Part shown: piece by piece, positions 24,327 to 58,127 of the stretch
How positions within the stretch are numbered: position 1 is the stretch's first letter
Layout of the letters: each line of letters opens with the position of its first letter
The notes under the pieces: model-generated
What the model saw: the letters and a program-made list of their open reading frames with translations, nothing else
What the model was told of the DNA's origin: nothing
Database searches by the model: none
Source: an uncultured Ignavibacteria bacterium
GTDB lineage: Bacteria; Zixibacteria; MSB-5A5; CAIYYT01
NCBI GenBank assembly: GCA_964468475.1
Contig: CAYXUL010000004.1
Coordinates: 1,811 to 63,490 of the forward strand
Length of the DNA stretch: 61,680 nt
Reading direction: 5' to 3'
Translations under genes and position numbers: made by a program

Positions 24327-24390
24327 AACCTAAGGCTGGCACTTTATCGCCGCTTGACAGGCTGCATTTCGTTCCCGATTCTAAAAGCTT

Positions 24391-30016: not shown

Positions 30017-30034
30017 TGAAAGGCAAGCGCGCAA

Positions 30035-37157: not shown

Positions 37158-39139
37158 CAGCGATCACCTTCTTTCTTTGCCGGTTCGGTGTGGCAGGCGT
37201 CGCACATCCTCTCAGAGAAAGGTGCGTGGCTGTTGCTGAGCATTAGACCACGATCCTCGGAAGCATGCGGATCGTGGCACTTGCGGCAGTCAATTTGTGA
37301 GCCGGTCAATCCCAGGTGTTTGTCTTTGAAGGCGGAATCATCGCCATCGTGACAGTCGAGGCAGGTTGCCGGAACGTCCTGTATCAGCAGTGAAGCATAT
37401 TCGCTCGAATGGGGCTGGTGACAGGTGCTGCACTCTTCCTCGGCGGGTGGATGCGCCTTATAGTTTGCCATCATCGTGTCAATGTCAACGTGGCAATTAA
37501 GGCAGAGACGTGGCTGTTTATCGAGCAGGAGATTGCCCAGCTTTCCCGAATGAGGCGTATGACATTCGGTGCAATTGCCTTCCTCCACCGGAGCGTGCAT
37601 GCTTGTTGTTGCGGCCGGTTCGACGATGTCATCATGACACGTGCCGCACAGTTCTTTGGGGGTAGCTGTAAGCAGATTTGGCACTTCGCCGGCGTGGACG
37701 ACGTGACAGATATCGCAATTTCTTTCCTTGAAGGGGGGATGCTGAATGATTGCGAGGCTATCGGCGTAGAGATCGCTGTGACATTTTTCGCAGAGATCAT
37801 TCTTTGCCGCGCGTAGCAGTGGAGCCGTCTGTGAAGCGTGCGGATTGTGGCACTCTACACATTGTCCCTGCTTAATCGGCATATGCACGCTCTTCTCGGC
37901 GAGCCAATCCACGCCCTCGTCGTGGCAATCCCCGCAAAGTTCCGACTGGGGCTTCTTGATAAGATTCGCATACTGCGAACCATGTGGTTTATGGCAATCC
38001 GTGCACTCACCGTCAACGAATGGCGGGTGCGTGCTGGGGAAATCCATTGCTTCTGCTTTGTCGTCATGACAGGTGAGGCACAGCTCTTTGCTGTCAGCTA
38101 CCAATAGCATCTTTTTGGCCATGCCATGAGCGTTGTGGCAGGTGCTGCAATCCTCCTCGGCGGGTGCGTGGCGTGATGCCATTACCAGCTCGTCCTGAAC
38201 ATCACTGTGACACTCAAGACAAAGTTGCTTCTCCGGTTCGATCAACAGCGCGTTTTCTTTCGATCCGTGCGGGTTGTGGCAGCTGGTGCAACTGCCCGCC
38301 TCGACTGGTGCGTGGCTACCCTCGGGAGCAACATCAGCCTTGTCGTGGCAGGTCAGACAGAGCGCATCGGCATCATCAGTCAGTTCAAAAGGCGTGGCAG
38401 AGTCGGGCGCATTGTGGCAACTTTCACACTCGCCACCTTCAACGGGCGCGTGTATTGATGCCCGGAACAGGAATTTTGAATCTGATGAGTGCGGCGAATG
38501 GCACTTGCCACAATCCTGATCTTCCAGGGCGTATCCACCGTGCGCCTGCTTGTAGTCGGCTGGTTGATGACAATCGCGGCATAGATCATTAGCAGGCTTC
38601 TTCAGTAAGCCGGCGTATGCACTGCCGTGGACTTCGTGACAGGCAAAGCAGTTGTCCTTCATTGGCTCATGAACAAACTTACCCTCGAATTCCTTGCGAT
38701 CGTGGCAGTCGAAGCATATCTCCGACGCTGTCTTCTTCAGAAGCGCTTCATTATCTGAAGCGTGGGGGTCGTGGCACTTCTCGCAGCGGCCCTGTTTCGC
38801 AGGCGCATGAATGACACTGGCGTCCATGCCCAGTTTGGCCTTATCGTGGCACTCGTAGCAGAGCTGGGCGCCGCTCTCCTTGAGCCGCAGCATTCCTACC
38901 AGTCCATGCGGTTTGTGGCAGGCCACACAGTCTTTGTCGCCGAACGGTTTGTGTTTGTTGGAGCCCGGGAAGTCCTTTACGTCATGACACTCGGTGCAAT
39001 TGCCCTTTGATGAGAAGCGCTTGCCACGTTTGATCTGACCGCTTGCATCCGAAGTAAGGAATATCAGCGTAGCGGCGCAGATGAGCAGCACCAATAGAGG
39101 GAGTGAGTTGCCAACCCATCTGAGCTTACCAGACCACAT
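37157..39139 (-). CDS. multiheme c-type cytochrome, 26 CxxCH motifs (13 tandem diheme units)
   Basis: I counted 26 CxxCH. The start is set at ATG 39139 (MWSGKLRWVGNSLPLLVLLICAATLIF signal/anchor). The stop overlaps the next gene's ATG (TGATG). Confidence 0.95.
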   Translation of the reverse strand: MWSGKLRWVGNSLPLLVLLICAATLIFLTSDASGQIKRGKRFSSKGNCTECHDVKDFPGSNKHKPFGDKDCVACHKPHGLVGMLRLKESGAQLCYECHDKAKLGMDASVIHAPAKQGRCEKCHDPHASDNEALLKKTASEICFDCHDRKEFEGKFVHEPMKDNCFACHEVHGSAYAGLLKKPANDLCRDCHQPADYKQAHGGYALEDQDCGKCHSPHSSDSKFLFRASIHAPVEGGECESCHNAPDSATPFELTDDADALCLTCHDKADVAPEGSHAPVEAGSCTSCHNPHGSKENALLIEPEKQLCLECHSDVQDELVMASRHAPAEEDCSTCHNAHGMAKKMLLVADSKELCLTCHDDKAEAMDFPSTHPPFVDGECTDCHKPHGSQYANLIKKPQSELCGDCHDEGVDWLAEKSVHMPIKQGQCVECHNPHASQTAPLLRAAKNDLCEKCHSDLYADSLAIIQHPPFKERNCDICHVVHAGEVPNLLTATPKELCGTCHDDIVEPAATTSMHAPVEEGNCTECHTPHSGKLGNLLLDKQPRLCLNCHVDIDTMMANYKAHPPAEEECSTCHQPHSSEYASLLIQDVPATCLDCHDGDDSAFKDKHLGLTGSQIDCRKCHDPHASEDRGLMLSNSHAPFSERMCDACHTEPAKKEGDR

Positions 39140-39176
39140 ATCAATATCCTTTCTCACCACTCCCCGAGTCCTTTCC

Positions 39177-40811
39177 CTACCGGCTCTCACCCAGGTAGCG
39201 GTCAATGGCCTTGTCGAAGTAAGTGATCTCAGAGTGATCCTTCAGCACTGCGAGTGCCTTGTCGAGAAGGCTGTTGAATTGGCGTTGAAACATGATCTGC
39301 CGAATTGCGAGTTCGACTTCATCAAGTGACTTGAGTCGGCCCTGCTTCTTGTCAAGCAACCTGAAGATTATCCAGCCATCGGAGGTTGGAAAAGGACGAC
39401 TGGATGCCCCAATTTGCAGGGAGTCGAGATTGTCACGGATTTCCTCCGGAAACGCATTGAGCGTTGTCCAGTCGGTCTTTTCCATCACGCGCGGATCTCC
39501 GGTGACGAAGCGATCAGTCACGTAGTCGAAGTCACTGCCATCCTTAAGCAGTTGATAAGCGCTGTCTGCGCCGGCTTTGTCAGCGATGATGATACTGCGA
39601 AGTTGTAGCTTGCCCGGCTCACGGAAATCATCCTGGTGCTCGTTGTAGTATTTGGTGAATTCATCGCGGTTGAATGTTATCTGCGAGACGACGGTTTCCT
39701 TGAGGTAGATCTCCACCAGGGCGCTATCGCGAGTCTTGTCAAGCGCCGCGACAACTTTCGGGTCATTCTCAAGACCTGCGGCAACCCCTGACTGCAGTAG
39801 CGCCTGCTGTTGCAGCCACTGATCGATTGCTGCAGTCACAAGCGAATCCTTTGGGGCATTGGCGGCGTTCATCGCCAGCCGGGCTGTGGCCAGTCGCAAC
39901 TCGCTGTCAGTGAGCTTGCCGGTCTCACCGATGGTAGCGACGACATCATTGGTACCGATAAGGAATGTTGAATCCAGGACCGCCTCAGCATCAGAAGCAA
40001 TTGCCTTCGCGCGTTCGTTGTTGCGAGTGACTCCCAGTTGCTGCTCCAGGGAATCGACAAACGCCAGCCAATCGGCCTTTTGCTTATTGATTTTAAGCAC
40101 GCTGCGAATGTAGTTTTGCAGAGACGGCAGCTCTGTCTCGTCGGCGGGCGTTACCTGATCTACACGCATGAGCACGTAGGCATCATGGTAGGGAAACGGC
40201 CCGATCAACTGACCTTCTTTGGGGTCAGGCAGGTGAGTCCTCAGTTCATTCTCAATCTCTGCATAGTACATTAAACTGTGCGCGCCGCCCTGATAGCGGT
40301 GCACGTCGACTGAATTGGTCTTTGCGAGACTGTCCATCGGCGCTCCGGCGGCGATCATCTGCCTCAGGGAATCCGCTTTGCTACGGCTCAAAGTCGCAAT
40401 AGTTCTGATCTGAACTTTGAAGTACTTCTTGTCAAAGTAGTCCTTGATCTCGTCGTCGCTGACCTTTTTGTTAAACTTGTAATAGTTTTTCGCAAAACAC
40501 CGCTCGACATTCTTATCGCGTTCCCGCTCCATGAACTTCAGGAACGAGTCTTCGTCGGCCATACCGATAGCATTGGCTTCCTGTATGATGAGCCTGTCAT
40601 TTACGAGCTTATCCACGAGTTTGCGATAGTCAAATTTCATTTTCGAGTTGTTGCTCATAGAATCGTGAATCGTGGAAAAGATATCGTCGACGTCCGTTGT
40701 CGTGATCGAATCGCCGTTGACTACAGCCAGCACCTCCTGCGCCAGCGCTCTGCTACCGTCGACTATGAGCAAACCGAGGAGCAGTGTGAGTAAAATCCTG
40801 AAGCCTTGCAT
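39177..40811 (-). CDS. SurA-like periplasmic chaperone / parvulin-type peptidyl-prolyl isomerase
   Basis: The start is set at ATG 40811 (MQGFRILLTLLLGLLIVDGSRALA). The SurA_N-like opening is VLAVVNGDSITTTDVD. There are two rotamase-like segments (QIRTIATLSRSKADSL..., LQLRSIIIADKAGADSAYQLLKDGSDF). Confidence 0.75.
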   Translation of the reverse strand: MQGFRILLTLLLGLLIVDGSRALAQEVLAVVNGDSITTTDVDDIFSTIHDSMSNNSKMKFDYRKLVDKLVNDRLIIQEANAIGMADEDSFLKFMERERDKNVERCFAKNYYKFNKKVSDDEIKDYFDKKYFKVQIRTIATLSRSKADSLRQMIAAGAPMDSLAKTNSVDVHRYQGGAHSLMYYAEIENELRTHLPDPKEGQLIGPFPYHDAYVLMRVDQVTPADETELPSLQNYIRSVLKINKQKADWLAFVDSLEQQLGVTRNNERAKAIASDAEAVLDSTFLIGTNDVVATIGETGKLTDSELRLATARLAMNAANAPKDSLVTAAIDQWLQQQALLQSGVAAGLENDPKVVAALDKTRDSALVEIYLKETVVSQITFNRDEFTKYYNEHQDDFREPGKLQLRSIIIADKAGADSAYQLLKDGSDFDYVTDRFVTGDPRVMEKTDWTTLNAFPEEIRDNLDSLQIGASSRPFPTSDGWIIFRLLDKKQGRLKSLDEVELAIRQIMFQRQFNSLLDKALAVLKDHSEITYFDKAIDRYLGESR

Positions 40812-40815
40812 TAAT

Positions 40816-41946
40816 CTACCTCTGCACCGTTTCGTGTTGAATAGTCTTGTTGCTGGAGACTCCCGTGCGCCGTTCCCGCACGAGCCGCTTCCACATCGTC
40901 TCCACCAGTGATTGCGTTGTCCTGCCGATTGAATATTCTCTCCCCGAGCCGAACAGGGCGTTGACCGTGGCGCCGTTTCGCTGGTCGTTGACAGCAGAGA
41001 GTACAACTCCGCTCTGGGGGTCGGTGAGACGCAGACTCAAGCCGACTACCGGCCCCGCCTGGGAAACTCGGCCCCGTAACGGCAAGAACTCAAAAACTGT
41101 GCCGCTCACCAAAGCAGTGACATTCAGGCTGTCCGACAGTTCTTTCATGCCAACCTCGGTTGCCGATCCTATATAGAGCTGCCGGCTGCGGGTCAAAATG
41201 CGAGTCACATCACCGGGCTCAGCGACCGGGTATCCCAGCTGCCATACCTCGGCAAGTAGCAGATCTGATACCACGTCGCCCGCGGTCAGATAAAGTGTCG
41301 AATGATCGCAGGGGATTACCGCGAGCTTGCCGCTCTGCAGCAGCTTTCTGGCCTGCTTGCTGACTTTCGGCACTTTGAAGTTTGAGCCGGCGAAATGAGA
41401 ATCAAAATCCTTCATCAGCTCCCGAATTACTCTCGATGTTACTTTGCTCATTGAAGACGTCTCACCAATCCCCAGAAGCCCGCCGTAATCTTCTCCCGCT
41501 GCCGAGACGCACTTGGCCCAAACGACTTCCAGGGAGCGGCAGTCGTAGACCCTCAGGCAGAGTGACAATTCGGGTAGCTCTCCCGGTTGGTAGATTTCGA
41601 TTGCGCCGGTGACAACGAATCTGACACCGAGCCCTTGATTCAGTTCAGACGCTGCCACGGAGTTAACCACTCCCACGAGTCGCAGCCTATTCGAGCGCAT
41701 GAAGTCTCTGAGTGAATCACCGGTAATTAGATTACAGCGTTGCTCCAACTCGGACTTCACCGCGGATTCAACCGAATCGCGGGCTTCATTGAATTCGCTG
41801 TAGTTGGCCAACGGCACCAGCGCAAACCTTGTGGCAGCACTCTCAATTGTTGCTTTGGCCCCGGGGGCAAAAACAAGAATAAATAGAGCACATATCATCA
41901 AGATTGCGCTGTAGTCTCTTAGCATTGTTCTTGTGTCGTCAGCCAT
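40816..41946 (-). CDS. periplasmic/OM-associated protein with two tandem CsgG/LpoB/TolB-N-like domains
   Basis: 376 aa with an N-terminal hydrophobic anchor. Two repeats follow the pattern (F/L)A(L/V)(V/I)P...(spacing)...(V/A)L(V/I).G(T/A)(V/I), matching the neighbouring lipoprotein. Confidence 0.55.
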   Translation of the reverse strand: MADDTRTMLRDYSAILMICALFILVFAPGAKATIESAATRFALVPLANYSEFNEARDSVESAVKSELEQRCNLITGDSLRDFMRSNRLRLVGVVNSVAASELNQGLGVRFVVTGAIEIYQPGELPELSLCLRVYDCRSLEVVWAKCVSAAGEDYGGLLGIGETSSMSKVTSRVIRELMKDFDSHFAGSNFKVPKVSKQARKLLQSGKLAVIPCDHSTLYLTAGDVVSDLLLAEVWQLGYPVAEPGDVTRILTRSRQLYIGSATEVGMKELSDSLNVTALVSGTVFEFLPLRGRVSQAGPVVGLSLRLTDPQSGVVLSAVNDQRNGATVNALFGSGREYSIGRTTQSLVETMWKRLVRERRTGVSSNKTIQHETVQR

Positions 41947-41961
41947 CTTTTGACTTCAGTC

Positions 41962-42585
41962 TCAGTCGATTAGTGTATCGATAGTTTTGCGCACGCAACG
42001 TCGCGCAACTTCGCTATAGGAGCGCTGTTCCGTTCCGAAGAGCGATGACAAAAACGTGCGACTGCCCTCAGTGTCGGTAGCCGACCACACGATTTGTCCT
42101 TCCTCAGTCTCCATCATGCGGACATCGAGAGTTACAACTGTGGCCGGGCCGCCACTCGAGCGATTATTGGTCGACTCATTGACAGTGCCGATAATAAGTG
42201 CCTGCACGCCCAGCGTCTTACCCAGTTCCTTAATCTGATCCACCGTGAGCAGGTCTTTGCGCGGCAGCGTATATTTTCCCAGCGCCTTGATTACTTCTCC
42301 CGGCTCCACAATGTCGAATGCTTCCGCTGCCAGCAACTCTGTCATAAACAAGTGCGTCAGTCGTGGTCCTGCGCCTTGATCATTGGAAAGATTTTCAAAC
42401 GGAACTATCGCGACCCGTTCTACATAGGCGAAATTGTAATCCCGGTTCAGGAACACTGTTGGTTTGACTGTCGAGCAGCCGGAGAGCAAAAGTGCAAAAA
42501 GAACAGCAAGCGAGATGACTGCCGGGAGAGTCGCGTGAACAGTCTTCGCGGTAAGTCGGAGTTGATTCTTAGTAGTGTATTTCAT
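41962..42585 (-). CDS. lipoprotein, DUF799/LpoB/CsgG-like fold suspected
   Basis: Lipobox LLSGC. VAIVPFENLSNDQGAG ... LGVQALIIGTVNE ... VTLDVRMMETEEGQIVWSA is the pattern shared by CsgG, LpoB, PelC-like and TolB-N-like ring lipoproteins. Confidence 0.65.
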   Translation of the reverse strand: MKYTTKNQLRLTAKTVHATLPAVISLAVLFALLLSGCSTVKPTVFLNRDYNFAYVERVAIVPFENLSNDQGAGPRLTHLFMTELLAAEAFDIVEPGEVIKALGKYTLPRKDLLTVDQIKELGKTLGVQALIIGTVNESTNNRSSGGPATVVTLDVRMMETEEGQIVWSATDTEGSRTFLSSLFGTEQRSYSEVARRCVRKTIDTLID

Positions 42586-44696
42586 TAGAATCCCGTCCTG
42601 ATTCCGATCCTGAAGGACATCGTTGAAACTCCACCGGTGCCGGTAAGATCATTTTCTTGAACTGTACCGGTAAGCGTGGTACGACGCGTCAGGCTATAGT
42701 CAATTTGCGCTCCGTAACGCTCAGTACGAGAACCGGCATCGAAACTAAGCAGATAGGCGCTGGCGCTGGTGCTGACTTTTGGAGTCATGCGCCAGGTGAA
42801 GATAAAGTTCTGTGTCAGGCTGCGAACCAGAGCGTCCTCGATACTGTTGATATTGCCGCGCAGTTGCATATTTTCGCTGATCATGTAGGTGAACCCCAGC
42901 AGGTACTCTTTTCTGACGATCAGTCCCACTTCGTTCTCAGTGGTCTCACGGTAGCGATAGCTGGCCTGGCCTTCAAGCCACTGAGTCAGGCTGCCGATCA
43001 GGTAGGCCCGATATGACCAGCTATCCAGCTGTCGCGCGACCTGATTCAGCCTCGTTCGATTCAGTCCCACTTCCTGATTTAACTTCAGTTGAGGAAATAG
43101 ATCCGCACCCGCTCTTACAAAAGCGTTGTAGAACTCTTCCGACCGGAAACTGCTGATATAGTTGGCTCTGGCGTACGCTGAAGCCGTCAAATCGAGAGTT
43201 CTGATCGGAAGATACTCAAGCGAGTACCCTCCCGAGGTCGAGCGGTTTACTTCGATCATTGTGTTCTTGATATCGAGGAGGGCGAGCTCGCCTTGAATGG
43301 TCTGATGAAGATTGTCACTGATCTTATGACGAATGGATGAATTGAAGTAAGCCTCCCTGCGTCCCGGATCCTGCGCATTGCCCGGCTCGTCCCGAAGTGT
43401 GACATTTACATTGGACGACAGGTTACTTGAAAGGTGCACGGTGTTAGTAAGATCGATTTCATGGAAGAAGTTGTCGAGGGACAACTTGCTGGTTTGATTC
43501 ACATGCACAAATGCCTGCATTTCGGTTACAAACACCGAGTCGCTCAAATTGAAGCCGCTATTGACTACCTTGATGTAGCGTGTGGTAGTCTTATCGAATG
43601 AGATTTCATAGCGACTGAAACCGGGGCTGAAAACCGACTGGGCCCTACCCTGGCTTTGCCAGAACACGGCATCCTCCGAAGTAAATACCGTCCAGGCTAC
43701 CGAGTTGTCCGAAGGGACATCTGTGTAGATGTAGAGCATGTCGACGTCGCGCGCCGAACCAAGATCGGCGCCAATATTCCAGCCAGTGTTCCCGTCGCCG
43801 ATATTTATCGGCGGTACCGTTTCGCTGGTAACATCGCCGTCTGCCAAAGCGAGCACCGTATCAAGACCACCGGTCTCAGGCGACTCGTCACGAGCCGCCA
43901 GCCCGGCGAAAATCGGGATTTCACGTGGGATCGAGCCACCTGTCAGGTTCTCGTCCGTCTGTACCCGATAGTCGCCTCGGTAGCTAATCGACGACCGTAC
44001 GCTGCCGCCAATCCAGTTGAGTGATTGCTGTAACCGCAGTGAGTGATGCGTTGTCGAGCTGCGCAACTCGCGGGACCAGTCATCGGTTACGCGTCGTTTG
44101 AATGAATATTGGACCGAGGATCGCAGGGAATTATAGCCCGTCCCCAGTTCCAGAATTTGATCGCGGGTATCACGGTCGCTGCGATCTACCTGATTGTATC
44201 TTTTCTCATACCCCAAGTTGGCCTTCACATAGGGATAATTGGGAACCTGCGACTTGATTGTAACGCTGGCGATTTGCGTAACCAGTTCGATGCTTCGGTC
44301 GTTACTCTTGGTTTCCTGGTACTGACCGAGGCCGGTAACGGAAAAGGCCCGCTGCCGCCAATAGGCTTCAACGCTGGGCTGCAATTCAGAACGCCAGTTG
44401 TTTGGCCCGTCGCTCTGAGTAACGCCCACGTTGTAGTAGCGCAAGGAGGTGCGTCCCAGCAGATTCTTGCTGAATTGTTGCTGCCAGCCCAGCACGTACT
44501 CCTGGTCGAGATTCTCTCGTTTCTGGACATCGGTTTCTGACTGAAAGAAGCCGACTCGCAGCCGTCCCGATAGATTCTGTGAAATCCGTGCTTGTACTGA
44601 ACCGGCAAGAAGGAGGGTGACCGCGAAAGCGGATATGGCAGTGGTAGGCAGTCCCGTCCAAACCTTCTGTCGTTTTACTCGTTTCAATTCTCTCAA
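42585..44696 (-). CDS. large outer-membrane beta-barrel protein with an inserted F5/8-type-C (discoidin)-like domain
   Basis: 703 aa with a TTG start and a signal peptide ending in SVQA. Amphipathic beta-strand periodicity at both ends. C-terminus is ...FRIGIRTGF (terminal Phe). The central insert is residues ~255-398. The stop overlaps the next ATG (TAATG). Confidence 0.8.
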   Translation of the reverse strand: MRELKRVKRQKVWTGLPTTAISAFAVTLLLAGSVQARISQNLSGRLRVGFFQSETDVQKRENLDQEYVLGWQQQFSKNLLGRTSLRYYNVGVTQSDGPNNWRSELQPSVEAYWRQRAFSVTGLGQYQETKSNDRSIELVTQIASVTIKSQVPNYPYVKANLGYEKRYNQVDRSDRDTRDQILELGTGYNSLRSSVQYSFKRRVTDDWSRELRSSTTHHSLRLQQSLNWIGGSVRSSISYRGDYRVQTDENLTGGSIPREIPIFAGLAARDESPETGGLDTVLALADGDVTSETVPPINIGDGNTGWNIGADLGSARDVDMLYIYTDVPSDNSVAWTVFTSEDAVFWQSQGRAQSVFSPGFSRYEISFDKTTTRYIKVVNSGFNLSDSVFVTEMQAFVHVNQTSKLSLDNFFHEIDLTNTVHLSSNLSSNVNVTLRDEPGNAQDPGRREAYFNSSIRHKISDNLHQTIQGELALLDIKNTMIEVNRSTSGGYSLEYLPIRTLDLTASAYARANYISSFRSEEFYNAFVRAGADLFPQLKLNQEVGLNRTRLNQVARQLDSWSYRAYLIGSLTQWLEGQASYRYRETTENEVGLIVRKEYLLGFTYMISENMQLRGNINSIEDALVRSLTQNFIFTWRMTPKVSTSASAYLLSFDAGSRTERYGAQIDYSLTRRTTLTGTVQENDLTGTGGVSTMSFRIGIRTGF

Positions 44697-44712
44697 AAGT
44701 CTCCACTTAACA

Positions 44713-44742
44713 GGGCACCCGACCCGACTGGGTCGGGCGCCT
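44713..44742 (-). other. GC-rich intercistronic stem-loop immediately downstream of the omcS-like gene
   Basis: GGGCACCCGACCC-gact-GGGTCGGGCGCC(T). An 8-bp perfect core is extended by 3-4 bp after one mismatch. It sits in the 111-nt gap before the barrel gene and has no clear U-tract. Confidence 0.5.
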
Positions 44743-44807
44743 GTTTGTGCCCTAAAACGATTTCAAGGTCAGAAGGGCTATAAGATTCGGTAACTTCGGC
44801 TCAGCCG

Positions 44808-45863
44808 TTAGAACGGCATCTCGTCGCCGGCATCCTTCACGTGGCACTTGTTGCACAGTGAGCGCTGGTTCGGGTTGTTGTATGGATCCGGGATCGCATA
44901 CGAACCGGACTCAACTCCATCCTCGTCGAGGAAGGTGACATTCATATCCCAACGGGTAGCGTCGGGAGCTGATGTCGCGTGTGCACGGTGACAGGTGATG
45001 CAGGAAACCTGGCTGCTAGCCGTCGGTCCGGCGGTAGACGTAGTCGTATTGGCCGGGTCTTCAAACGGAACCTCTGCAAGATACGCCGTAGCCTGAGTCC
45101 CACCGGTCTGGTCCACAGTGCCGTTGTACAGGTTATAAGCATTGGCAATAGTGCCGCCTATAGTCACACCGGACGGGTGGATCAGCTTGGTGCCGTTGTT
45201 GTGGAAGTCGCCGTGGCAGTTTCCGCACCACGCACTCATACCACCTTTGTAGGCGGTGTGGCTGGTCTGGCTCTCCGAACCGGAGTTAATGCTGATTCCC
45301 TCGGCATCGGGAGCCGCATTGGTGAAGGAATACAGGCCGTCCTGAACCGAGGCAATGCCATAAAGCAGACGGAAATTGGTGTTTCCGTGCGGGTCGTGGC
45401 AACTGGTGCACTCAAGGTTGGCAGCCGGGAAGGTACCCCCCGGAGCCGTAGTCAGTGTACCATCGGGGCCGGAACCCATGCTGGGAGCGTTGACATTATG
45501 GCCGGCAAAGGAACCTGGAATAGGATTGCTTGCTCCGGCATGGCCGTCGTTAATGTTGTCTTCAGAAAGAAAGACAAAATTACCGCCACCCTTCTCCGGG
45601 GGCGGAGCCAGCGGGTCAGCTCCCCACACGGCACCATGACTGGTGGCATGGCAGGAGAGACACACGTCGGAAGCAGAAGCATACTTCAGCAAATAAGCAT
45701 TGCCGTTCGGGTTAGACGCATCCACTAATGCGCCGTCTTGGCTGTTGTGCATCGTATGACAGCCGCTGCAGTGGGCTACGCCGGCATCGTGGAACCCCAT
45801 CGCTACGCCGCTGAAGAGAATCGGTAGCGAGAGAGCTACTGCGATGATTAGAAGCTTACGCAT
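44808..45863 (-). CDS. omcS: OmcS-family hexaheme c-type cytochrome (candidate filament/nanowire subunit)
   Basis: 351 aa with 6 CxxCH. Blocks are collinear with my recollection of G. sulfurreducens OmcS. These are G|FHDAGVAHCSGCHTMHNS (OmcS FHSGGVAECEGCHTMHNS), TLTTAPGGTFPAANLECTSCHDPHG (OmcS TLTTAPGGTFPANQLHCSSCHDPHG), GMSAWCGNCHGDFHN, GTQATAYLAEVPFED, VSCITCHRAHAT and QRSLCNKCHVKD. Confidence 0.8.
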   Translation of the reverse strand: MRKLLIIAVALSLPILFSGVAMGFHDAGVAHCSGCHTMHNSQDGALVDASNPNGNAYLLKYASASDVCLSCHATSHGAVWGADPLAPPPEKGGGNFVFLSEDNINDGHAGASNPIPGSFAGHNVNAPSMGSGPDGTLTTAPGGTFPAANLECTSCHDPHGNTNFRLLYGIASVQDGLYSFTNAAPDAEGISINSGSESQTSHTAYKGGMSAWCGNCHGDFHNNGTKLIHPSGVTIGGTIANAYNLYNGTVDQTGGTQATAYLAEVPFEDPANTTTSTAGPTASSQVSCITCHRAHATSAPDATRWDMNVTFLDEDGVESGSYAIPDPYNNPNQRSLCNKCHVKDAGDEMPF

Positions 45864-45925
45864 AGTTAAAAAACCTCCGAGATTTACTCACTTAAAAGAG
45901 CTAGAATAAAAGGGGTTAAGCTTGG

Positions 45926-47002
45926 TTAGCGCATCACCTCCTTTGCAGAATTTTCTGGCAGTTGTGGTGGAAGAGAACTTTGAACAGGTCCATTTTCTGA
46001 GGTGCTATCCGGCCCATTCTCCAGCGAATCAAGCCGCTGCCTGATGAAATCCGGTAAGTCACAAACCTGAACGCGATTCATGAAGCGCTGCGAAATATAC
46101 AAACGCCCTTGGTTATCATGATCAATATAGGCAGGATGGTAAAAATCCCCCGGTTTCACTCCCATACCGCCGAACTCGCCCAGGAACTGCCCATTGGTTG
46201 AATAACACACTACTGCAAATCGATGTTTGTCCAGAACGGCAGCGATCTTGTGGTCAATGATCGTTACGTCGCTGGGGAAATTCAGCTCACCCGCCAGGTT
46301 TCCCCGTATTCCGAACGCCCGCACAAACTGGCCGCCTACGTCGTAGACGTAAACCTGTCCGAGCATCGGCGCCGGAAGGTAGAGGTGGTTGCCATCAATC
46401 TCGGGCTGTCCCAATATGGATTCCCTCCTTGACTTCTCGGTCAGGTCTCCCAGGACAGCAAATTGAGATTGGAATTTCCCTTCGGTATTGATCACGACAA
46501 CACTGAGATCAGCCCCGTTGACAACATAGATCAAATCGTTTTCTGAAATATTCATGGAAAGCGGCGCAAACCGGAAGCCCTCCGGAGTGTCGGAGAGTTC
46601 CAGCTGACCCAGCAGAAGTCCGTCATAGTCTACTTTGAAAATATGTGCGCCATCGGCCGTTGTACCGAGAACATAGATGTACCCGCGTGAATCAACTACC
46701 ACCGAGCCCACGTTGCGAAAGACATCTTTGCCGCCAAATTCGAACAGGTAAACACCGGCAGTATCTAAAACAACGACACGATTATTGCCCGGATCTGTCA
46801 CAAAGACTTCGCCGGCGCGCCGGTCAATAAATACATTCTCAGGCCTCAGGAAACCGTTGCCGGCCCCCGGCATCTCCAGCAAGCGCACGAATTCGGTCCT
46901 CACCGACAGGTCATCCCTGCTCTGTGCAAAGCTGGGGGCCGAACAGACAGTAACTGCCAAAAGCAAGGCAGCCACCGAAATGGACAAAGAATCGAGGTCC
47001 AT
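45926..47002 (-). CDS. NHL-repeat beta-propeller protein, secreted
   Basis: The start is set at ATG 47002 (MDLDSLSISVAALLLAVTVCSAPSFAQ). It has repeated NHL-type blades (VFVTDPGNNRVVVLDTAGVYLFEFG, IYVLGT..., LYISQRFMNRVQV). Confidence 0.8.
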   Translation of the reverse strand: MDLDSLSISVAALLLAVTVCSAPSFAQSRDDLSVRTEFVRLLEMPGAGNGFLRPENVFIDRRAGEVFVTDPGNNRVVVLDTAGVYLFEFGGKDVFRNVGSVVVDSRGYIYVLGTTADGAHIFKVDYDGLLLGQLELSDTPEGFRFAPLSMNISENDLIYVVNGADLSVVVINTEGKFQSQFAVLGDLTEKSRRESILGQPEIDGNHLYLPAPMLGQVYVYDVGGQFVRAFGIRGNLAGELNFPSDVTIIDHKIAAVLDKHRFAVVCYSTNGQFLGEFGGMGVKPGDFYHPAYIDHDNQGRLYISQRFMNRVQVCDLPDFIRQRLDSLENGPDSTSENGPVQSSLPPQLPENSAKEVMR

Positions 47003-47094: not shown

Positions 47095-47112
47095 TAGTGA
47101 ATTGATTCACAA
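47095..47112. promoter_or_regulatory. Rex/CRP-type palindromic operator candidate, TAGTGAA-TTGA-TTCACAA
   Basis: It matches TTGTGAA-N4-TTCACAA at 13 of the 14 arm positions. It lies ~100 nt upstream of ATG 47002 and 95 bp (centre to centre) from the other site. Confidence 0.5.
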
Positions 47113-47189
47113 GGAAAGTTCAAAAAAACAGCAGAACGCCCTAAAAAACTAATCTATAAAGGCTAACGTGGAAATCGCCACCTAACTCG

Positions 47190-47207
47190 TTGTGATTTTT
47201 TTCACAT
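47190..47207. promoter_or_regulatory. Rex/CRP-type palindromic operator candidate, TTGTGAT-TTTT-TTCACAT
   Basis: The core TGTGA-N6-TCACA is perfect (47191-47206). It lies ~196 nt upstream of the NHL/omcS-like operon start (47002, minus strand). Confidence 0.55.
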
Positions 47208-47447
47208 GAGCAGGTAAAGCTTGAGCTGCAAGGCGAGACTATTTTGTACAATGAACTAACCCTGAAATCGACTTATATTCGTTCGGCGATATGATAGACA
47301 ATTAGCTCGGGAAAGCAAGCGAAAAAAAGTACCTTTTTGTATCTTTTTTGGAATTCTGCTTTAATCAGGAATGATTTGTCCCTGTAATTTGCGAAGTTTC
47401 AAGCGCTTCTGTTTTGAAGTCAGGGCGTGTGGAGAGCTGATGAGTCG

Positions 47448-48477: not shown

Positions 48478-49200
48478 CTATGATTGGTCGCGATCACTTT
48501 CCTGAGCCCCTTCCGGTACGAACTTATATCCGGCTCCCCGCATCGTGAGAATGTACCTGGGGTTGGCAGGGTCGGGTTCGAAAATCTTGCGCAGCCGCAG
48601 GATGAAATTATCAATCGTGCGGGTAGAGGGATAAACATGATACCCCCAGACAGCATCGAGAATCATATCGCGTGAGACGACTTCATTCTCGTGCTCCGAG
48701 AGAAACTTCATCGTCATACATTCCTTCTGCGACAGCTCGGTCTCCCCGCTGGGTCCAACCGCCTGGTAGGTCTTGAAATCCACCCAATTATCGGCAAAGA
48801 CATAGCGCGACTCATCTTTCTCCACCGTGCTGTACCACACTTGTCGTCTGAATATCGCTGCCACCCGCAGCAGCAGTTCCTGCAGATCAAACGGCTTGGT
48901 GAGATAGTCATCGCCGCCGGAAAGGAAGCCTTCAACGCGATCCGATTGCCGATCGCGCGCTGTCAGGAAGAGAATCGGTATTCTTCCGCCGGCTTTACGA
49001 ATTTGGCGGCACACTTCCAGGCCGTCTTTGCCGGGAATCATGATATCCAGGATGATCAAATCGAATTGACCGTCACGATACATTTGCAGCGCTGCGTTAC
49101 CGTCAGTGGCAACCCCAACATCATATCCTTCCGCCTCAAGATTCAATACTAAACCCTCGGCGATATGTTCTTCGTCCTCAACTACCAGAATCTTCTTCAT
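48478..49200 (-). CDS. OmpR/PhoB-family response regulator
   Basis: The start is set at ATG 49200 (MKKILVVEDEEHIAEGL). Receiver Asp is in LIILDIMIPGKDG. The winged-helix end is MRGAGYKFVP. Confidence 0.9.
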   Translation of the reverse strand: MKKILVVEDEEHIAEGLVLNLEAEGYDVGVATDGNAALQMYRDGQFDLIILDIMIPGKDGLEVCRQIRKAGGRIPILFLTARDRQSDRVEGFLSGGDDYLTKPFDLQELLLRVAAIFRRQVWYSTVEKDESRYVFADNWVDFKTYQAVGPSGETELSQKECMTMKFLSEHENEVVSRDMILDAVWGYHVYPSTRTIDNFILRLRKIFEPDPANPRYILTMRGAGYKFVPEGAQESDRDQS

Positions 49201-49225
49201 GTTGTTCTCACAAGTCCTCAGCCGG

Positions 49226-53511: not shown

Positions 53512-53678
53512 CTCGAAAAAGGGGAAAAGACACCTCATCCGACCTTACTTTCCACCTAGAACACCGGTAGCGGCCTCCGGGTGCTACCCGTCTCATTTTG
53601 TGGGGAAGAAACCAACCTAAAATCGCCGGATTTCCGCAAGCAGAATTTGCTTAACGAGTTAACATAATGGGATAAGTT

Positions 53679-53696
53679 TTGTGAAGTATATCACAA
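53679..53696. promoter_or_regulatory. Rex/CRP-type palindromic operator candidate, TTGTGAA-GTAT-ATCACAA
   Basis: TTGTGA-N6-TCACAA is perfect. It lies ~185 nt upstream of the FeS/NrfD/13-heme operon. Confidence 0.55.
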
Positions 53697-53809
53697 TAAC
53701 TGCCGATAAAGAGAATGGGGAAAATCGGACAATGATGCTATTTTATCCTTGACAATTGGAGGTTAAAGTAGCATTAATTGTCTGGATTTGCGGGTGAGTA
53801 GCGGAGACT

Positions 53810-53827
53810 TTGTGAAAAAAATCACAA
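53810..53827. promoter_or_regulatory. Rex/CRP-type palindromic operator candidate, TTGTGAA-AAAA-ATCACAA
   Basis: TTGTGA-N6-TCACAA is perfect, and the 8-bp arms are CTTTGTGA/TCACAAAG. It lies ~55 nt upstream of ATG 53874. Confidence 0.55.
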
Positions 53828-53873: not shown

Positions 53874-54782
53874 ATGGGTTTCACGCGCAGAGACCTGCTG
53901 AAATGGGCCGCAGTCGGCACGGTGTCGGCGGCTGCCGGTTCCGCTATGGCCGAAGACGACGAATTTGTCGCCAACTGCGACGACAACTACGGTGTACTGG
54001 TAGATACCGTCGTTTGCATTGGTTGTCGCAAATGCGAATGGGCCTGCAATAATGAACACAAATTGAAAAATGCCGATTTGGAGTCTTTTGAGGATAAGTC
54101 GGTATTCGAACACCACCGTCGCCCGACCGACGACGCATATACGGTCGTCAATCGGTTCTGGGCTCCCGAACAGAATGACAAGGCTTATACGATCAAGGTT
54201 CAGTGCATGCACTGCAATTACCCGGCCTGTGTGTCGGCTTGTATCGTGGGGGCGCTTAGCAAGAGCAACATCGGACCTGTGGACTATGATGCCTGGAAAT
54301 GTATCGGCTGCCGCTATTGTATGGTTGCCTGCCCGTTCCAGGTACCGGCCTACGAGTATCAGGAGGCGCTGAAACCCCGGGTACGAAAATGTACTTTCTG
54401 CAAGGAGCGCCTGACCGAAGGTCGTCGCCCCGCCTGTGTATCGATCTGTCCTAACGAAGCTCTTACCTTTGGTACCCGGGATGAACTTATCGAAGTTGCT
54501 CGCGAACGAATCAGGTCGCATCCCGGAAAATACGTTGATCATATTTTCGGTGAGAATGAGATCGGTGGAACCAGCTGGCTTTACCTGGCGGCGACCGATT
54601 TCACAAACACCGAGTTGCCGACTCTCGATTCTGAAAACATCCCTCATCGAACCGAGAGAATACAGCACGGCATCTTCAAATCATTCATCCCGCCAATTGC
54701 TCTTTACGGATTGCTGGGATTGATCATGCAGTCGAAGCCAGACAACGAGGAGAAGGAGGAAGAAGATGTCAGTGCATCATGA
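53874..54782 (+). CDS. Tat-exported 4x[4Fe-4S] ferredoxin subunit (HybA/NrfC/DsrO/PsrB-like)
   Basis: Twin-arginine leader MGFTRRDLLKWAAVGTVSAAAGSAMA. There are four Cys clusters (CIGCRKCEWAC, CMHCNYPACVSAC, CIGCRYCMVACP, CTFC...CVSICP). ATG 53874 is preceded by GAGGTGA. Confidence 0.9.
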   Translation: MGFTRRDLLKWAAVGTVSAAAGSAMAEDDEFVANCDDNYGVLVDTVVCIGCRKCEWACNNEHKLKNADLESFEDKSVFEHHRRPTDDAYTVVNRFWAPEQNDKAYTIKVQCMHCNYPACVSACIVGALSKSNIGPVDYDAWKCIGCRYCMVACPFQVPAYEYQEALKPRVRKCTFCKERLTEGRRPACVSICPNEALTFGTRDELIEVARERIRSHPGKYVDHIFGENEIGGTSWLYLAATDFTNTELPTLDSENIPHRTERIQHGIFKSFIPPIALYGLLGLIMQSKPDNEEKEEEDVSAS

Positions 54783-56019
54783 TATTCCTGCCCCCATCCA
54801 GAAGCCGTTTTTCACCAGAGGAACCCTCATTGTCGCCTTGGTGGCGGCATTAGGTCTCGGGGCTTATATTTATCGGCTCGTATTCGGCCTGCAAAGCGCC
54901 ACCAACCTCAACAATCAATACCCCTGGGGAATCTGGATTGCAATTGATGTGGCATCCGGCGTAGCGCTCGCAGCCGGCGGCTTTACAACTGCGGCGCTGG
55001 CTGACATCTTCCACAAGGAGAGGTATCACGTAATCGTCAGGCCGGCTTTGTTGACTGCAATGTTGGGCTATACATTCGTTGTCATCGGTCTGCTGGCTGA
55101 TCTGGGTCGCTACTATAATGTCTGGCATCCGATGATTCCGACCATGTGGCAGGGCAATTCGGTGCTGTTTGAGGTCGGTATGTGCGTGATGATCTATCTA
55201 ACAGTGCTCTACATCGAGTTCCTGCCGATCGTAGCCGAGCGCTTTGTCGGTCGCGTACACCTTCCCGGGCCGCTCCGGCTACTGAACGGCATCATTGATA
55301 CTTTTCTGAGAGTTTCTCGCAAGTTTCTGGGTCGCTTCATTTCGATCTTCATTATTGCAGGCGTGGTTCTCTCCTGTATGCATCAGTCGTCTCTCGGTAC
55401 GTTGATGGTGATTGCTCCCACCAAGATGCACCCGCTCTGGTACACGAGTTTTTCACCACTCATGTTTCTGCTCTCGGCGATTGCAGTTGGATTTCCGATG
55501 GTAATCTTCGAGTCGATTCTGTCAAGCCGCTCCTTTGGCCTGAAACCGGAGACTGGAGTGCTGGCGTCGATTGCCCGCTATACGCCTTTGCTTCTGGGCG
55601 TCTATCTTGGAGTCAAGATTGTTGATTTGACGATTCGGGAAGCATGGTCCTATGTCCTGGCTTTCGACTACTATTCACTCATGTGGATAGCGGAGATCAT
55701 GCTGGGTGTTGTGATTCCGATCATTATCCTGTCATCCCGGCGTCTCCGCCACAACTTGAACTGGCTGTTTACCAGCGCGGCTCTGGTCATTTTTGGCGTC
55801 GTGTTCAACAGGATCAATGTTTTCCTCGTTGCCTATAAACCACTTTACTCAACCACGACCTATTTCCCCTCGATCTTTGAGCTGGCTGTAACTGCCGGCC
55901 TGATTGCGACCCTGGTCCTCGTTTACAGATTCCTGGTATTGAACTTGCCGGTCATATCTTCCCCCAGAATCGAGAGCGGATCCAGGCCCGAAACCATGAG
56001 TGCTTTCAAGACGGCGTGA
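54766..56019 (+). CDS. NrfD/PsrC-family polytopic membrane subunit (quinone-interacting)
   Basis: 417 aa and about 10 TM helices. WGIWIAIDVASGVALAAGGF is typical of the NrfD family. It overlaps the FeS gene by 17 nt. Confidence 0.9.
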   Translation: MSVHHDIPAPIQKPFFTRGTLIVALVAALGLGAYIYRLVFGLQSATNLNNQYPWGIWIAIDVASGVALAAGGFTTAALADIFHKERYHVIVRPALLTAMLGYTFVVIGLLADLGRYYNVWHPMIPTMWQGNSVLFEVGMCVMIYLTVLYIEFLPIVAERFVGRVHLPGPLRLLNGIIDTFLRVSRKFLGRFISIFIIAGVVLSCMHQSSLGTLMVIAPTKMHPLWYTSFSPLMFLLSAIAVGFPMVIFESILSSRSFGLKPETGVLASIARYTPLLLGVYLGVKIVDLTIREAWSYVLAFDYYSLMWIAEIMLGVVIPIIILSSRRLRHNLNWLFTSAALVIFGVVFNRINVFLVAYKPLYSTTTYFPSIFELAVTAGLIATLVLVYRFLVLNLPVISSPRIESGSRPETMSAFKTA

Positions 56020-56030
56020 GGTGCGCAAAC

Positions 56031-58109: not shown

Positions 58110-58127
58110 TAGTTAAAAATTTCACAA
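58110..58127. promoter_or_regulatory. weaker Rex-like site, TAGTTAA-AAAT-TTCACAA
   Basis: 12 of 14 arm positions match. It lies ~110 nt upstream of hbd-ackA. Confidence 0.3.

What the first reader, a model, noticed from the sequence alone, without database searches (positions are those of the whole stretch)
47095..47207. Pair of Rex/CRP-type palindromes in the 445-bp AT-rich region upstream of the omcS-like operon
**Sites.** 47191-47206 is a perfect TGTGA-N6-TCACA. 47096-47111 is AGTGA-N6-TCACA, and in full reads TAGTGAA-TTGA-TTCACAA. Their centres are 95 bp apart, roughly nine helical turns.

**Possible regulators.** The 18-mers fit the Rex (NADH/NAD+ sensor) operator consensus as I remember it, TTGTGAA-N4-TTCACAA. 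The core also equals the CRP-family consensus.

**Chance expectation.** With equal base frequencies, a perfect 10-position core is expected about 0.06 times in 61.7 kb (61,680 / 4^10). I found three perfect cores, all in the two intergenic regions preceding cytochrome operons. I did not scan coding sequence exhaustively.
Basis: partly seen in the sequence, partly recalled or inferred. Interest (0 to 1): 0.7.

Follow-up and report, generated by a model that had tools for sequence, protein, structure and literature searches.

The report
Conserved Rex-type operators before cytochrome operons
Two short DNA palindromes in front of an OmcS-like "nanowire" cytochrome operon are real, evolutionarily conserved binding sites for a regulator encoded elsewhere, most likely the NADH-sensing repressor Rex, which would tie extracellular electron transfer in this uncultured Zixibacteria-like bacterium to the cell's redox state.

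Summary
TGTGA-N6-TCACA occurs exactly three times in the window (0.06 expected).

**The sites are functional.**
- Both boxes upstream of the OmcS-homologue operon are invariant islands in an otherwise diverged spacer, and their 93-96 bp spacing is kept in relatives.
- The same box recurs upstream of orthologous OmcS-type operons in Zixibacteria-like, Calditrichaeota and Acidobacteriota MAGs.
- It also recurs upstream of the HmcB/HmcC-like FeS-NrfD-cytochrome operon in at least 35 of 80 metagenome loci.

**Which regulator.** Forty-two distinct orthologous sites (near-identical loci pooled) give TTGTGAA-W4-TTCACAA, the published Rex consensus. The boxes lie downstream of conserved sigma-70-type promoters (+24 to +48, and +78 and +173), which is repressor geometry rather than CRP-activator geometry. 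A degenerate but conserved box also precedes hbd-ack.

**What is missing.** No Rex or CRP/FNR gene lies in the window or in about 2 Mb of related loci, and the whole genome was not available. The regulator is therefore inferred: Rex about 0.6, a CRP/FNR-family protein about 0.25.

**Verdict.** A new member of a known kind, with new targets and clear experimental tests.

The parts
47190..47207 (-). Promoter-distal Rex-type box of the OmcS-like operon. On the - strand it reads ATGTGAAAAAAATCACAA.
   Evidence: Perfect TGTGA-N6-TCACA core. Its core TGTGAA..AATCACA is invariant in alignment A1 and in 8 further relatives. It starts about +78 from the predicted transcription start. Matrix score 25.5 bits.
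47095..47112 (-). Promoter-proximal Rex-type box of the OmcS-like operon. On the - strand it reads TTGTGAATCAATTCACTA.
   Evidence: One mismatch to the 12-position pattern. TTGTGAA....TTCAC is conserved in relatives, 93-96 bp from the distal box. Matrix score 22.3 bits. Its first 15 bases (TGTGAATCAATTCAC) equal those of the 16-base core of the published candidate Rex box of Caldithrix abyssi (PMC5317091).
47291..47318 (-). Predicted sigma-70-type promoter of the OmcS-like operon. The -35 TTGCTT is at 47318..47313 and the -10 TATCAT is at 47296..47291, with a 16-nt spacer.
   Evidence: Conserved as TTGC(T/C)T-17-TATAAT or TATACT in relatives. It is predicted only; there is no transcription-start mapping.
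47329..47348 (-). Two 10-bp direct repeats (AAAAAGATAC and AAAAAGGTAC on the - strand), 10 nt upstream of the -35. They may be a site for the adjacent OmpR-family response regulator.
   Evidence: Conserved block. The histidine kinase (49226-50509) and OmpR-type regulator (48478-49242) are syntenic in relatives. The function is inferred.
35928..47002 (-). The regulated operon. In order: NHL beta-propeller protein (45926-47002), OmcS homologue (44808-45863), a 703-aa protein of unknown family (42585-44696), lipoprotein-like genes, a SurA-like prolyl isomerase, and two large multiheme cytochromes (37157-39205 and 35928-37157).
   Evidence: The same gene order is found in L004, L005 and L007.
53679..53696 (+). 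Distal Rex-type box of the FeS-NrfD-cytochrome operon: TTGTGAAGTATATCACAA.
   Evidence: Perfect 12 of 12 match. It lies about -98 from the predicted transcription start. It is conserved in the closest relative L169 and weakly in L088.
53810..53827 (+). Proximal Rex-type box of the FeS-NrfD-cytochrome operon: TTGTGAAAAAAATCACAA.
   Evidence: Perfect 12 of 12 match. An orthologous box about 64 nt before the ATG is present in at least 35 of 80 metagenome loci. It starts at +26 from the predicted transcription start.
53749..53778 (+). Predicted promoter of the FeS-NrfD-cytochrome operon: TTGACA, an 18-nt spacer, then ATTAAT.
   Evidence: A perfect TTGACA -35 with a -10-like hexamer after a 16-18-nt spacer (17 nt in most) is found at the equivalent place in 20 of 28 loci.
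53874..57170 (+). Second regulated operon: HmcB/HybA-like FeS protein, HmcC/NrfD-like membrane subunit and a multiheme cytochrome. It is a putative quinol:cytochrome oxidoreductase.
58110..58127 (+). Candidate third, degenerate box (TAGTTAAAAATTTCACAA), 5 nt upstream of the predicted -35 of the hbd-ack operon (58237-60313).
   Evidence: Matrix score 18.1 bits. The element (T/A)(A/T/C)G(T/A)(T/G)AnAAATTTCACAA is conserved in 8 relatives, usually at about -127 from the ATG. The downstream genes are a 3-hydroxybutyryl-CoA dehydrogenase and an acetate kinase.

Best explanation
The two palindromes are operators for a dimeric, globally acting transcription factor encoded elsewhere in the genome. It is most likely the NADH/NAD+-sensing repressor Rex.

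**Proposed mechanism for the OmcS-like operon.**
- The boxes lie in the transcribed leader, about +78 and +173, downstream of a conserved sigma-70-type promoter. That promoter itself carries direct repeats suited to the neighbouring OmpR-type response regulator.
- When NADH/NAD+ is low, the repressor occupies both boxes, which sit about 9 helical turns apart on the same face of the DNA. It then blocks transcription of the 11-kb operon for extracellular electron transfer.
- When NADH accumulates, the repressor leaves the DNA and the operon is expressed.

**Other targets.** The same box at +26, with a second box at about -98, controls the HmcBC-like quinol:cytochrome oxidoreductase operon. A degenerate box next to the -35 probably controls hbd-ack.

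**Shown versus inferred.**
- Shown: the sites exist, are far beyond chance, are conserved, are shared by the operons, and match the Rex consensus.
- Inferred: the promoters, the direction of regulation, the identity of the protein and the NADH response.
For: - **Statistics:** 3 perfect cores against 0.06 expected. All 5 matrix hits in the window are intergenic, and intergenic DNA is 10% of the window.
- **Footprint:** both boxes are invariant in a spacer with 59% mean column identity, and the 93-96 bp spacing is kept in 9 relatives.
- **Cross-lineage recurrence:** 39 perfect cores occur in 1.35 Mb of related loci, where about 1.3 are expected. Nearly all lie upstream of the OmcS-type operon, in MAGs labelled Zixibacteria or Ignavibacteria, in Calditrichaeota L018 and in Acidobacteriota L045, L047, L051 and L056.
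- **Second operon:** a box about -64 from the ATG is present in at least 35 of 80 metagenome loci. All 87 hits of at least 19 bits in 2 Mb sit at these operons, 86 upstream of them and one just downstream of the OmcS-like gene (L070). Weaker hits are 28 intergenic against 5 coding.
- **Motif:** the positions that were not used to select sites give A at position 7 in 35 of 42, T at position 12 in 33 of 42, and an A/T-rich centre. That is TTGTGAA-W4-TTCACAA, the Rex consensus (PMC2883068; PMC5317091, which cites Ravcheev 2012).
- **Geometry:** 20 of 28 FeS-operon loci have a perfect TTGACA -35, and the box starts at +24 to +48 from the predicted start in 20 of the 28. At the OmcS operon the first box starts at +78 to +82 from a conserved promoter. 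In L046 and L057 a further degenerate box overlaps the -10.
- **Targets fit Rex logic.** They are respiratory and electron-sink functions and an NADH-linked dehydrogenase.
- **Precedents:** Rex and a near-identical box exist in the FCB-group bacterium Caldithrix abyssi. Rex-like boxes were predicted upstream of extracellular multiheme cytochrome genes in Calderihabitans (PMC7306483).
Against: - No rex gene was found in the 61.7-kb window or in 176 related loci (about 2.1 Mb), using tblastn and phmmer with a B. subtilis Rex query that was validated against PDB 2VT2. No rex domain appeared in any Pfam scan or neighbour list. The rest of the genome could not be searched, so the existence of Rex in this lineage is unproven.
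- The TGTGA-N6-TCACA core is equally the CRP-family core.
- The promoter-distal boxes carry A rather than T at position 12.
- Operators at +78 and +173 are unusually far downstream for simple steric repression.
- All promoters are predictions. The generic promoter scan found none on the right strand.
- The matrix core positions were used to select the sites, so only positions 7-12 and the outermost positions carry independent information.
Confidence: 0.6

Rival explanations
1. The boxes are bound by a CRP/FNR-family regulator, with a cyclic nucleotide, a redox signal or another effector. This would resemble CRP control of anaerobic respiration and cytochromes in Shewanella. The regulator could act as a repressor, or as an activator of promoters I did not recognise.
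For: The perfect TGTGA-N6-TCACA core is the CRP-family consensus. CRP/FNR paralogues are near-universal, so one is probably encoded somewhere in the genome. The distal boxes read TGTGAA...ATCACA, which departs from the Rex T at position 12. The hbd box is centred near -49.5, a place where an activator could also act.
Against: - The inner positions A7 and T12 and the TT before GTGA are conserved as in Rex boxes.
- The boxes lie downstream of promoters that already have a perfect TTGACA -35 and so need no activator.
- No CRP/FNR gene lies next to any of about 170 loci. The one weak hit, in L102, is antisense to a gene that reads as PhoU-like by eye; that identification was not tested.
Confidence: 0.25
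2. The boxes are bound by a regulator of another or an undescribed family that happens to share the TGTGA/TCACA half-sites. This would be a dedicated regulator of extracellular electron transfer in FCB-group bacteria and Acidobacteriota.
For: No candidate regulator gene was identified. The regulon seen here is narrow: two cytochrome operons and possibly hbd-ack.
Against: The motif matches a well-known consensus at 14 of 18 positions. A dedicated local regulator would be expected next to its targets in at least some of about 170 loci, and none is there. The adjacent OmpR-type regulator is of a family that, by general knowledge, binds direct repeats. The FeS-operon boxes also occur where the neighbour list shows no two-component system (L169); the 80 metagenome loci were not checked for one.
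Confidence: 0.08
3. The palindromes act as RNA hairpins in the long 5' leader, affecting stability, attenuation or translation, rather than as DNA operators.
For: The boxes are predicted to be transcribed. Each can form a 5-9 bp hairpin of -3.3 to -10.4 kcal/mol.
Against: - The stem sequence is invariant, while the loop and flanks vary.
- The upstream box of the FeS operon (-98) and the hbd box lie upstream of the predicted transcription start.
- The whole leader is no more stable than shuffled sequence (z = -0.6).
- There is no Rfam match.
Confidence: 0.03

Closest known systems
Rex operator (ROP) and Rex regulon of Gram-positive bacteria, e.g. Staphylococcus aureus TTGTGAAW4TTCACAA (PMC2883068)
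   Same: The same 18-bp inverted repeat, including A7, T12 and the A/T-rich centre. Boxes often occur in pairs. The targets are respiration and NADH-reoxidising fermentation genes. The geometry is that of a repressor.
   Different: The host is an uncultured Zixibacteria-like (FCB-group) bacterium in which no rex gene has been seen. The targets are an OmcS-type operon for extracellular electron transfer and an Hmc-like complex. The boxes of the OmcS operon lie far inside the leader, at +78 and +173.
Caldithrix abyssi Rex (Cabys_3675), with the candidate box cTGTGAATCAATTCACAt upstream of a rex-[FeFe]-hydrogenase operon (PMC5317091)
   Same: It belongs to a neighbouring FCB-group phylum. The first 15 bases of the box core (TGTGAATCAATTCAC) are identical to those of the window's proximal box. 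A Calditrichaeota locus (L018) also carries boxes upstream of its OmcS-type operon.
   Different: There the regulator gene is adjacent and autoregulated. Here no regulator is nearby, and the targets are cytochromes rather than a hydrogenase.
Predicted Rex boxes (TTGTGA-N6-TCACAA) upstream of three extracellular multiheme cytochrome genes in Calderihabitans maritimus (PMC7306483)
   Same: A Rex-type box in front of genes for extracellular multiheme cytochromes, which were up-regulated under reducing (CO) conditions.
   Different: That organism is a Firmicute and its cytochromes are unrelated. There was no comparative conservation and no OmcS-type operon.
CRP sites (TGTGA-N6-TCACA) of E. coli, and CRP control of anaerobic respiration and cytochromes in Shewanella
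   Same: An identical 10-position core, and a link to respiratory cytochromes.
   Different: The conserved A7, T12 and TT flank fit Rex. The boxes are downstream of consensus promoters rather than at -41.5 or -61.5. No CRP-family gene was found nearby.
Bacillus subtilis cydABCD repression by Rex (YdiH) through operators in the leader, downstream of the transcription start (from memory; not verified here)
   Same: Several Rex boxes downstream of the start site of a respiratory operon that is also under a two-component activator (ResD there, an OmpR-type regulator here).
   Different: A different lineage and different targets. The distances here are larger.

Membership tests
Rex operator / Rex regulon | An 18-bp inverted repeat matching TTGTGAA-N4-TTCACAA | tested here: met
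   The four window boxes have 0-1 mismatches in the 12 outer positions. In 42 orthologous sites, position 7 is A in 35, position 12 is T in 33, and the centre is A/T-rich. The consensus is taken from PMC2883068 and PMC5317091.
Rex operator / Rex regulon | The genome encodes a Rex protein (winged-helix domain plus Rossmann NAD(H)-binding domain) | not testable with these tools
   None was found in the window or in 176 loci (query validated).
Rex operator / Rex regulon | The operator overlaps or lies downstream of the promoter, as expected for repression | tested here: met
   The boxes start at +24 to +48 from the predicted start of the FeS operon in 20 of 28 loci, and 20 of the 28 loci have a perfect TTGACA -35. 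They lie at about +78 and about +173 at the OmcS operon. The promoters are predicted and conserved, but not mapped.
Rex operator / Rex regulon | The targets are respiratory, fermentative or NADH-reoxidising functions | tested here: met
   The targets are an OmcS homologue with multiheme cytochromes, an HmcB/HmcC-like complex, and 3-hydroxybutyryl-CoA dehydrogenase with acetate kinase.
Rex operator / Rex regulon | DNA binding is relieved by NADH | not testable with these tools
   This needs EMSA or DAP-seq with and without NADH and NAD+.
CRP/FNR-family binding site | A TGTGA-N6-TCACA core | tested here: met
   Three perfect cores and one with a single mismatch.
CRP/FNR-family binding site | A site centred near -41.5, -61.5 or similar, upstream of an activator-dependent promoter | tested here: not met
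   The boxes lie downstream of predicted promoters that have a consensus -35. The hbd box is centred at about -49.5. This rests on predicted promoters only.
CRP/FNR-family binding site | A CRP/FNR-family regulator is encoded | not testable with these tools
   None was found in the window or in the loci. The genome-wide content is unknown.

The most novel reading that the evidence does not exclude
The boxes define a regulon conserved across phyla (Zixibacteria-like lineages, Calditrichaeota, Acidobacteriota). In it, one sensor of intracellular redox state switches on OmcS-type cytochrome nanowire operons together with their inner-membrane quinol oxidoreductase. In the more radical version, the sensor is not Rex but an undescribed regulator that shares the Rex/CRP half-site. 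Either way this would be the first predicted master switch for OmcS-type extracellular electron transfer outside Geobacter.
Probability: 0.25. Interest if true: 0.65.

Novelty: new member of a known kind. Interest (0 to 1): 0.5.

Why it matters
OmcS-type cytochrome operons are widespread in uncultured sediment bacteria, and it is not known when they are expressed. A conserved box of Rex type in front of these operons and of their membrane quinol oxidoreductase gives a concrete, testable rule: extracellular electron transfer is de-repressed when NADH builds up.

The box also gives a sequence tag that can be scanned in MAGs and metatranscriptomes to find the rest of the regulon. It would extend the Rex regulon to a new phylum and to a new class of targets.

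Tried and rejected
- **A regulator encoded nearby.** Pfam scans covered all but two of the roughly 51 main window ORFs; the two left out are 41382-41612 (76 aa) and 57766-57957 (63 aa). I also ran tblastn and phmmer with Rex, CRP and FNR against the window and 176 loci. No candidate appeared. The only weak CRP hit (L102) is antisense to a gene that reads as PhoU-like.\n- **A riboswitch or structured RNA leader.** Rfam gives nothing. The leader is not unusually stable (z = -0.6). The hairpins are weak and their sequence is invariant.\n- **The generic promoter scan.** It found nothing useful. The promoters were recovered only by aligning relatives and by a custom scan.\n- **Extra weak matches at 20961 and 53066.** These have 2 mismatches, score below 12 bits with the orthologue-derived matrix, and were dropped.\n- **The neighbouring OmpR-type regulator as the binder of the palindromes.** I rejected this because, by general knowledge, that family binds direct repeats, and the FeS-operon boxes occur where no two-component system is adjacent (L169). 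The direct repeats at 47329-47348 are the better candidate site for it.\n- **Strict helical phasing as a general rule.** It holds for the OmcS operon (93-96 bp). It does not hold for the second operon, where spacings are 97-98, 131, 142 and 145 bp.\n- **Literature on Rex in Zixibacteria or on regulation of OmcS clusters.** Nothing was found.\n- **The last large protein search.** I ran no further search on Rex, because its top-120 listing could not be aimed at this lineage.

Full report
**1. The observation**

The sequence is as described.
- 47191-47206 is TGTGATTTTTTTCACA.
- 47095-47112 is TAGTGAATTGATTCACAA.
- The centres are 95 bp apart.

An exhaustive scan of both strands finds exactly three perfect TGTGA-N6-TCACA cores in the 61,680 bases, at 47191, 53680 and 53811. 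The expectation is 0.06, and none of 100 dinucleotide-preserving shuffles reaches three.

With one mismatch there are six matches against 1.9 expected. The two additional ones lie inside a multiheme cytochrome gene.

Extended to TTGTGA-N6-TCACAA, the two sites at 53679 and 53810 are perfect, and those at 47095 and 47190 have one mismatch. Matches with three mismatches are at chance level.

The spacer is 445 bp. It runs from 47003, next to the true ATG of the NHL gene (47002), to 47447. Its GC is 40.7%, against 53% overall.

**2. The gene context**

The window comes from a Zixibacteria-like bacterium, judging by the names of the closest protein hits.

Downstream of the two boxes, on the - strand, lies an 11-kb gene string:
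- an NHL beta-propeller protein (45926-47002);
- a six-heme cytochrome (44808-45863) that is a real OmcS homologue (PDB 6EF8, E = 4e-43);
- a 703-aa protein of unknown family and lipoprotein-like genes;
- a SurA-like prolyl isomerase;
- two large multiheme cytochromes.

Upstream on the same strand are a small multiheme cytochrome, an OmpR-type response regulator and a histidine kinase. The whole arrangement is syntenic in relatives.

The other two perfect cores precede a + strand operon. It encodes an HmcB/HybA-like FeS protein, an HmcC/NrfD-like membrane subunit and a multiheme cytochrome. This is a putative quinol:cytochrome oxidoreductase.

**3. Conservation of the boxes at the OmcS-like operon**

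I aligned the spacer with those of relatives whose OmcS homologue is 74-85% identical.
- Both boxes are invariant islands in a spacer with 59% mean column identity.
- A wider alignment of 14 loci gives the same picture.
- The spacing between the boxes is 95 bp in the window, 96 bp in L004/L008 and L027, and 93 bp in L005/L049, L007/L009, L011, L053 and L081.

The genome-collection scan returned 79 loci. In the 1.35 Mb of loci held at that point (those 79 plus L001-L007) there are 39 perfect cores, where about 1.3 would be expected. Nearly all sit in the region upstream of the OmcS-type operon.

The lineages with boxes are:
- MAGs labelled Zixibacteria or Ignavibacteria;
- a Calditrichaeota MAG (L018);
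- Acidobacteriota and Thermoanaerobaculia MAGs (L045, L047, L051, L056). In L045, L051 and L056 the box is a perfect TTGTGAA-N4-TTCACAA, and in L047 position 7 is C. It lies about 200 nt before the cytochrome gene match.

Krumholzibacteria and Eisenbacteria loci lack the box.

**4. Conservation at the second operon**

A metagenome scan with the FeS protein returned 80 loci.
- A box starting about 64 nt before the start codon is present at a matrix score of at least 19 bits in 35 of them. More are found at lower scores, and several loci have no upstream DNA.
- In about 2 Mb of fetched loci, all 87 hits of at least 19 bits lie at these two operon types. Eighty-six are upstream of them. The other one lies just downstream of the OmcS-like gene, before the next gene, in a Calditrichaeota locus (L070).
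- Weaker hits (14-19 bits) are 28 intergenic against 5 coding.

In the window itself, the matrix gives five hits of at least 12 bits. All are intergenic, and intergenic DNA is 10.1% of the window.

**5. What the motif says about the regulator**

I collected 42 distinct orthologous sites (near-identical loci pooled; some sites from close relatives are counted separately). The sites were selected on the 12 outer positions, so those positions carry no independent information. The unselected positions do:
- position 7 is A in 35 of 42 sites;
- position 12 is T in 33 of 42 sites;
- positions 8-11 are A/T-rich.

The consensus is TTGTGAA-W4-TTCACAA. This is the Rex box reported for S. aureus (PMC2883068). 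It is also the generalised Rex consensus quoted from Ravcheev et al. 2012 in the Caldithrix abyssi genome paper (PMC5317091).

That paper also shows that an FCB-group relative has a rex gene preceded by cTGTGAATCAATTCACAt. The first 15 bases of that box's core (TGTGAATCAATTCAC) are identical to those of the window's proximal box.

**6. Geometry relative to the promoters**

*FeS operon.* Relatives share a promoter: 20 of 28 loci have a perfect TTGACA -35 followed, after a spacer of 16-18 nt (17 in most), by a -10-like hexamer. The box starts at +24 to +34 in most of the 28 loci and at +45 to +48 in another clade. It starts at +5 in one locus and between the -35 and the -10 in another. In the window the promoter is TTGACA (53749-53754), an 18-nt spacer and ATTAAT (53773-53778). 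The proximal box starts at +26 and the distal box is centred near -98. A terminator-like hairpin at 53578-53590 separates this unit from the preceding ORF.

*OmcS operon.* Relatives share TTGC(T/C)T-17-TATAAT or TATACT. In the window this is TTGCTT at 47318-47313 and TATCAT at 47296-47291. The first box starts at +78 to +82 and the second about 95 nt further on. In L046 and L057 an additional degenerate box overlaps the -10.

A factor that binds downstream of promoters with a consensus -35 is expected to repress. This favours Rex, which is a repressor, over a CRP-type activator. The promoters are predictions supported by conservation, not mapped starts. The generic scan did not report them.

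**7. A possible third target**

At 58110-58127, TAGTTAAAAATTTCACAA (18.1 bits) lies 5 nt upstream of a predicted -35 (TTGAGA, 17 nt, TATATT). The promoter precedes a 3-hydroxybutyryl-CoA dehydrogenase and acetate kinase operon.

The element, (T/A)(A/T/C)G(T/A)(T/G)AnAAATTTCACAA, is conserved in eight relatives although the flanks have diverged. In most of them it sits at about -127 from the ATG.

Its right half is a perfect Rex half-site. Its left half, usually GTTA instead of GTGA, resembles the clostridial Rex variant as I remember it. NADH-linked fermentation genes are classical Rex targets. I treat this as supportive but weaker evidence.

**8. What is missing**

No Rex or CRP/FNR gene is present in the window. 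This rests on Pfam scans of all but two small ORFs among the main ones and on phmmer over every reading frame of at least 90 aa.

None is present in the 176 related loci, about 2.1 Mb. The Rex query was validated against PDB 2VT2. The one weak CRP-like hit is antisense to a gene that reads as PhoU-like.

The regulator is therefore encoded elsewhere, as expected for a global factor. Its identity remains an inference, because whole genomes could not be scanned.

**9. Rival explanations**

- **A CRP/FNR-family protein.** This remains possible because the core is identical, the distal boxes have A at position 12, and the family is near-universal. The inner-position conservation, the repressor geometry and the target set fit Rex better.
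- **An RNA-level role.** This is unlikely. The stems are invariant, two of the boxes lie upstream of the predicted start, the leader is not unusually stable (z = -0.6), and Rfam finds nothing.
- **Chance.** This is excluded by the statistics and the conservation.

**10. Comparison with what is known, and novelty**

- Rex boxes, paired boxes and respiratory or fermentative targets are well known.
- Rex-like boxes upstream of extracellular multiheme cytochrome genes were predicted once, in the Firmicute Calderihabitans (PMC7306483).
- I found no report of Rex, or of any regulator, for OmcS-type operons in Zixibacteria, Calditrichaeota or Acidobacteriota.

The finding is therefore a new member of a known kind. 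It has good comparative support and a clear physiological hypothesis: NADH accumulation de-represses the route for extracellular electron transfer. The conserved direct repeats next to the -35, and the syntenic two-component system, suggest a second, activating input.

**11. Verdict**

| Question | Answer |
|---|---|
| Observation | Confirmed |
| Rex-type repressor operators | about 0.6 |
| CRP/FNR-family regulator | about 0.25 |
| Another regulator | about 0.08 |
| RNA hairpins | about 0.03 |
| Interest | 0.5 |

Noticed in passing
window 47329-47348 (- strand): Two tandem 10-bp direct repeats (AAAAAGATAC and AAAAAGGTAC) lie 10 nt upstream of the predicted -35 of the OmcS-like operon. They are conserved in relatives. 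They are a plausible site for the OmpR-type response regulator (48478-49242) and kinase (49226-50509), which are syntenic with the operon.
   Followed up: partly
window 58110-58127, with L169, L170 and L172-L176 upstream of hbd: A conserved element, (T/A)(A/T/C)G(T/A)(T/G)AnAAATTTCACAA, lies just upstream of the -35 of the operon for 3-hydroxybutyryl-CoA dehydrogenase and acetate kinase. It has a perfect Rex half-site and a degenerate one, so it may be a third member of the regulon.
   Followed up: partly
window 35928-47002 (- strand): The OmcS homologue (65-85% identical across the best 120 of more than 4,600 database hits) sits in a cluster with an NHL beta-propeller protein, a roughly 700-aa protein of unknown family, CsgG/LpoB-like lipoproteins, a SurA-like isomerase and two decaheme-type cytochromes. 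This cluster was seen in full in three close relatives (L004, L005, L007). OmcS homologues themselves occur in MAGs labelled Zixibacteria, Calditrichaeota, Acidobacteriota, Krumholzibacteria, Eisenbacteria, Fibrobacteria and Gemmatimonadota. It resembles the OmcS-associated assembly cluster that I recall from the Geobacter literature, which I could not verify here.
   Followed up: partly
L110, L111 and L115 (metagenome loci): In one clade the FeS-NrfD-cytochrome operon is preceded by an extra 129-aa ORF. Two strong boxes, 145 bp apart, lie upstream of that ORF.
   Followed up: no
L106, L107, L113, L114 and L119, about 45-70 nt upstream of the proximal box: A second conserved block, TAAT(T/C)(G/A)(A/C/G)AACCGATATTATTA, lies in front of the box in one clade of FeS-operon loci. 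My promoter scan places the -10 hexamer (GATATT or TATTAT) inside it and a TTGAC(A/T) -35 just upstream of it. I did not analyse it further.
   Followed up: no
window 21073-26216: A cluster of two ECF-type sigma factor genes (21073-21690 and 24391-25143), each followed by a Ser/Thr protein kinase gene. One kinase carries a long TPR region (21753-24326) and the other is at 25140-26216.
   Followed up: no
window 28910-33400: A protein with a PAAR motif (28910-30016) is followed by a 1,121-aa ORF with no Pfam match.
   Followed up: no
window 37777-37792 and 38413-38428: Two one-mismatch copies of TGTGA-N6-TCACA lie inside the 682-aa multiheme cytochrome gene. They may be a by-product of Cys/His codons (TGT, CAC) in CXXCH motifs rather than regulatory sites; the motif positions were not checked. 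Both score below 12 bits with the site matrix.
   Followed up: partly
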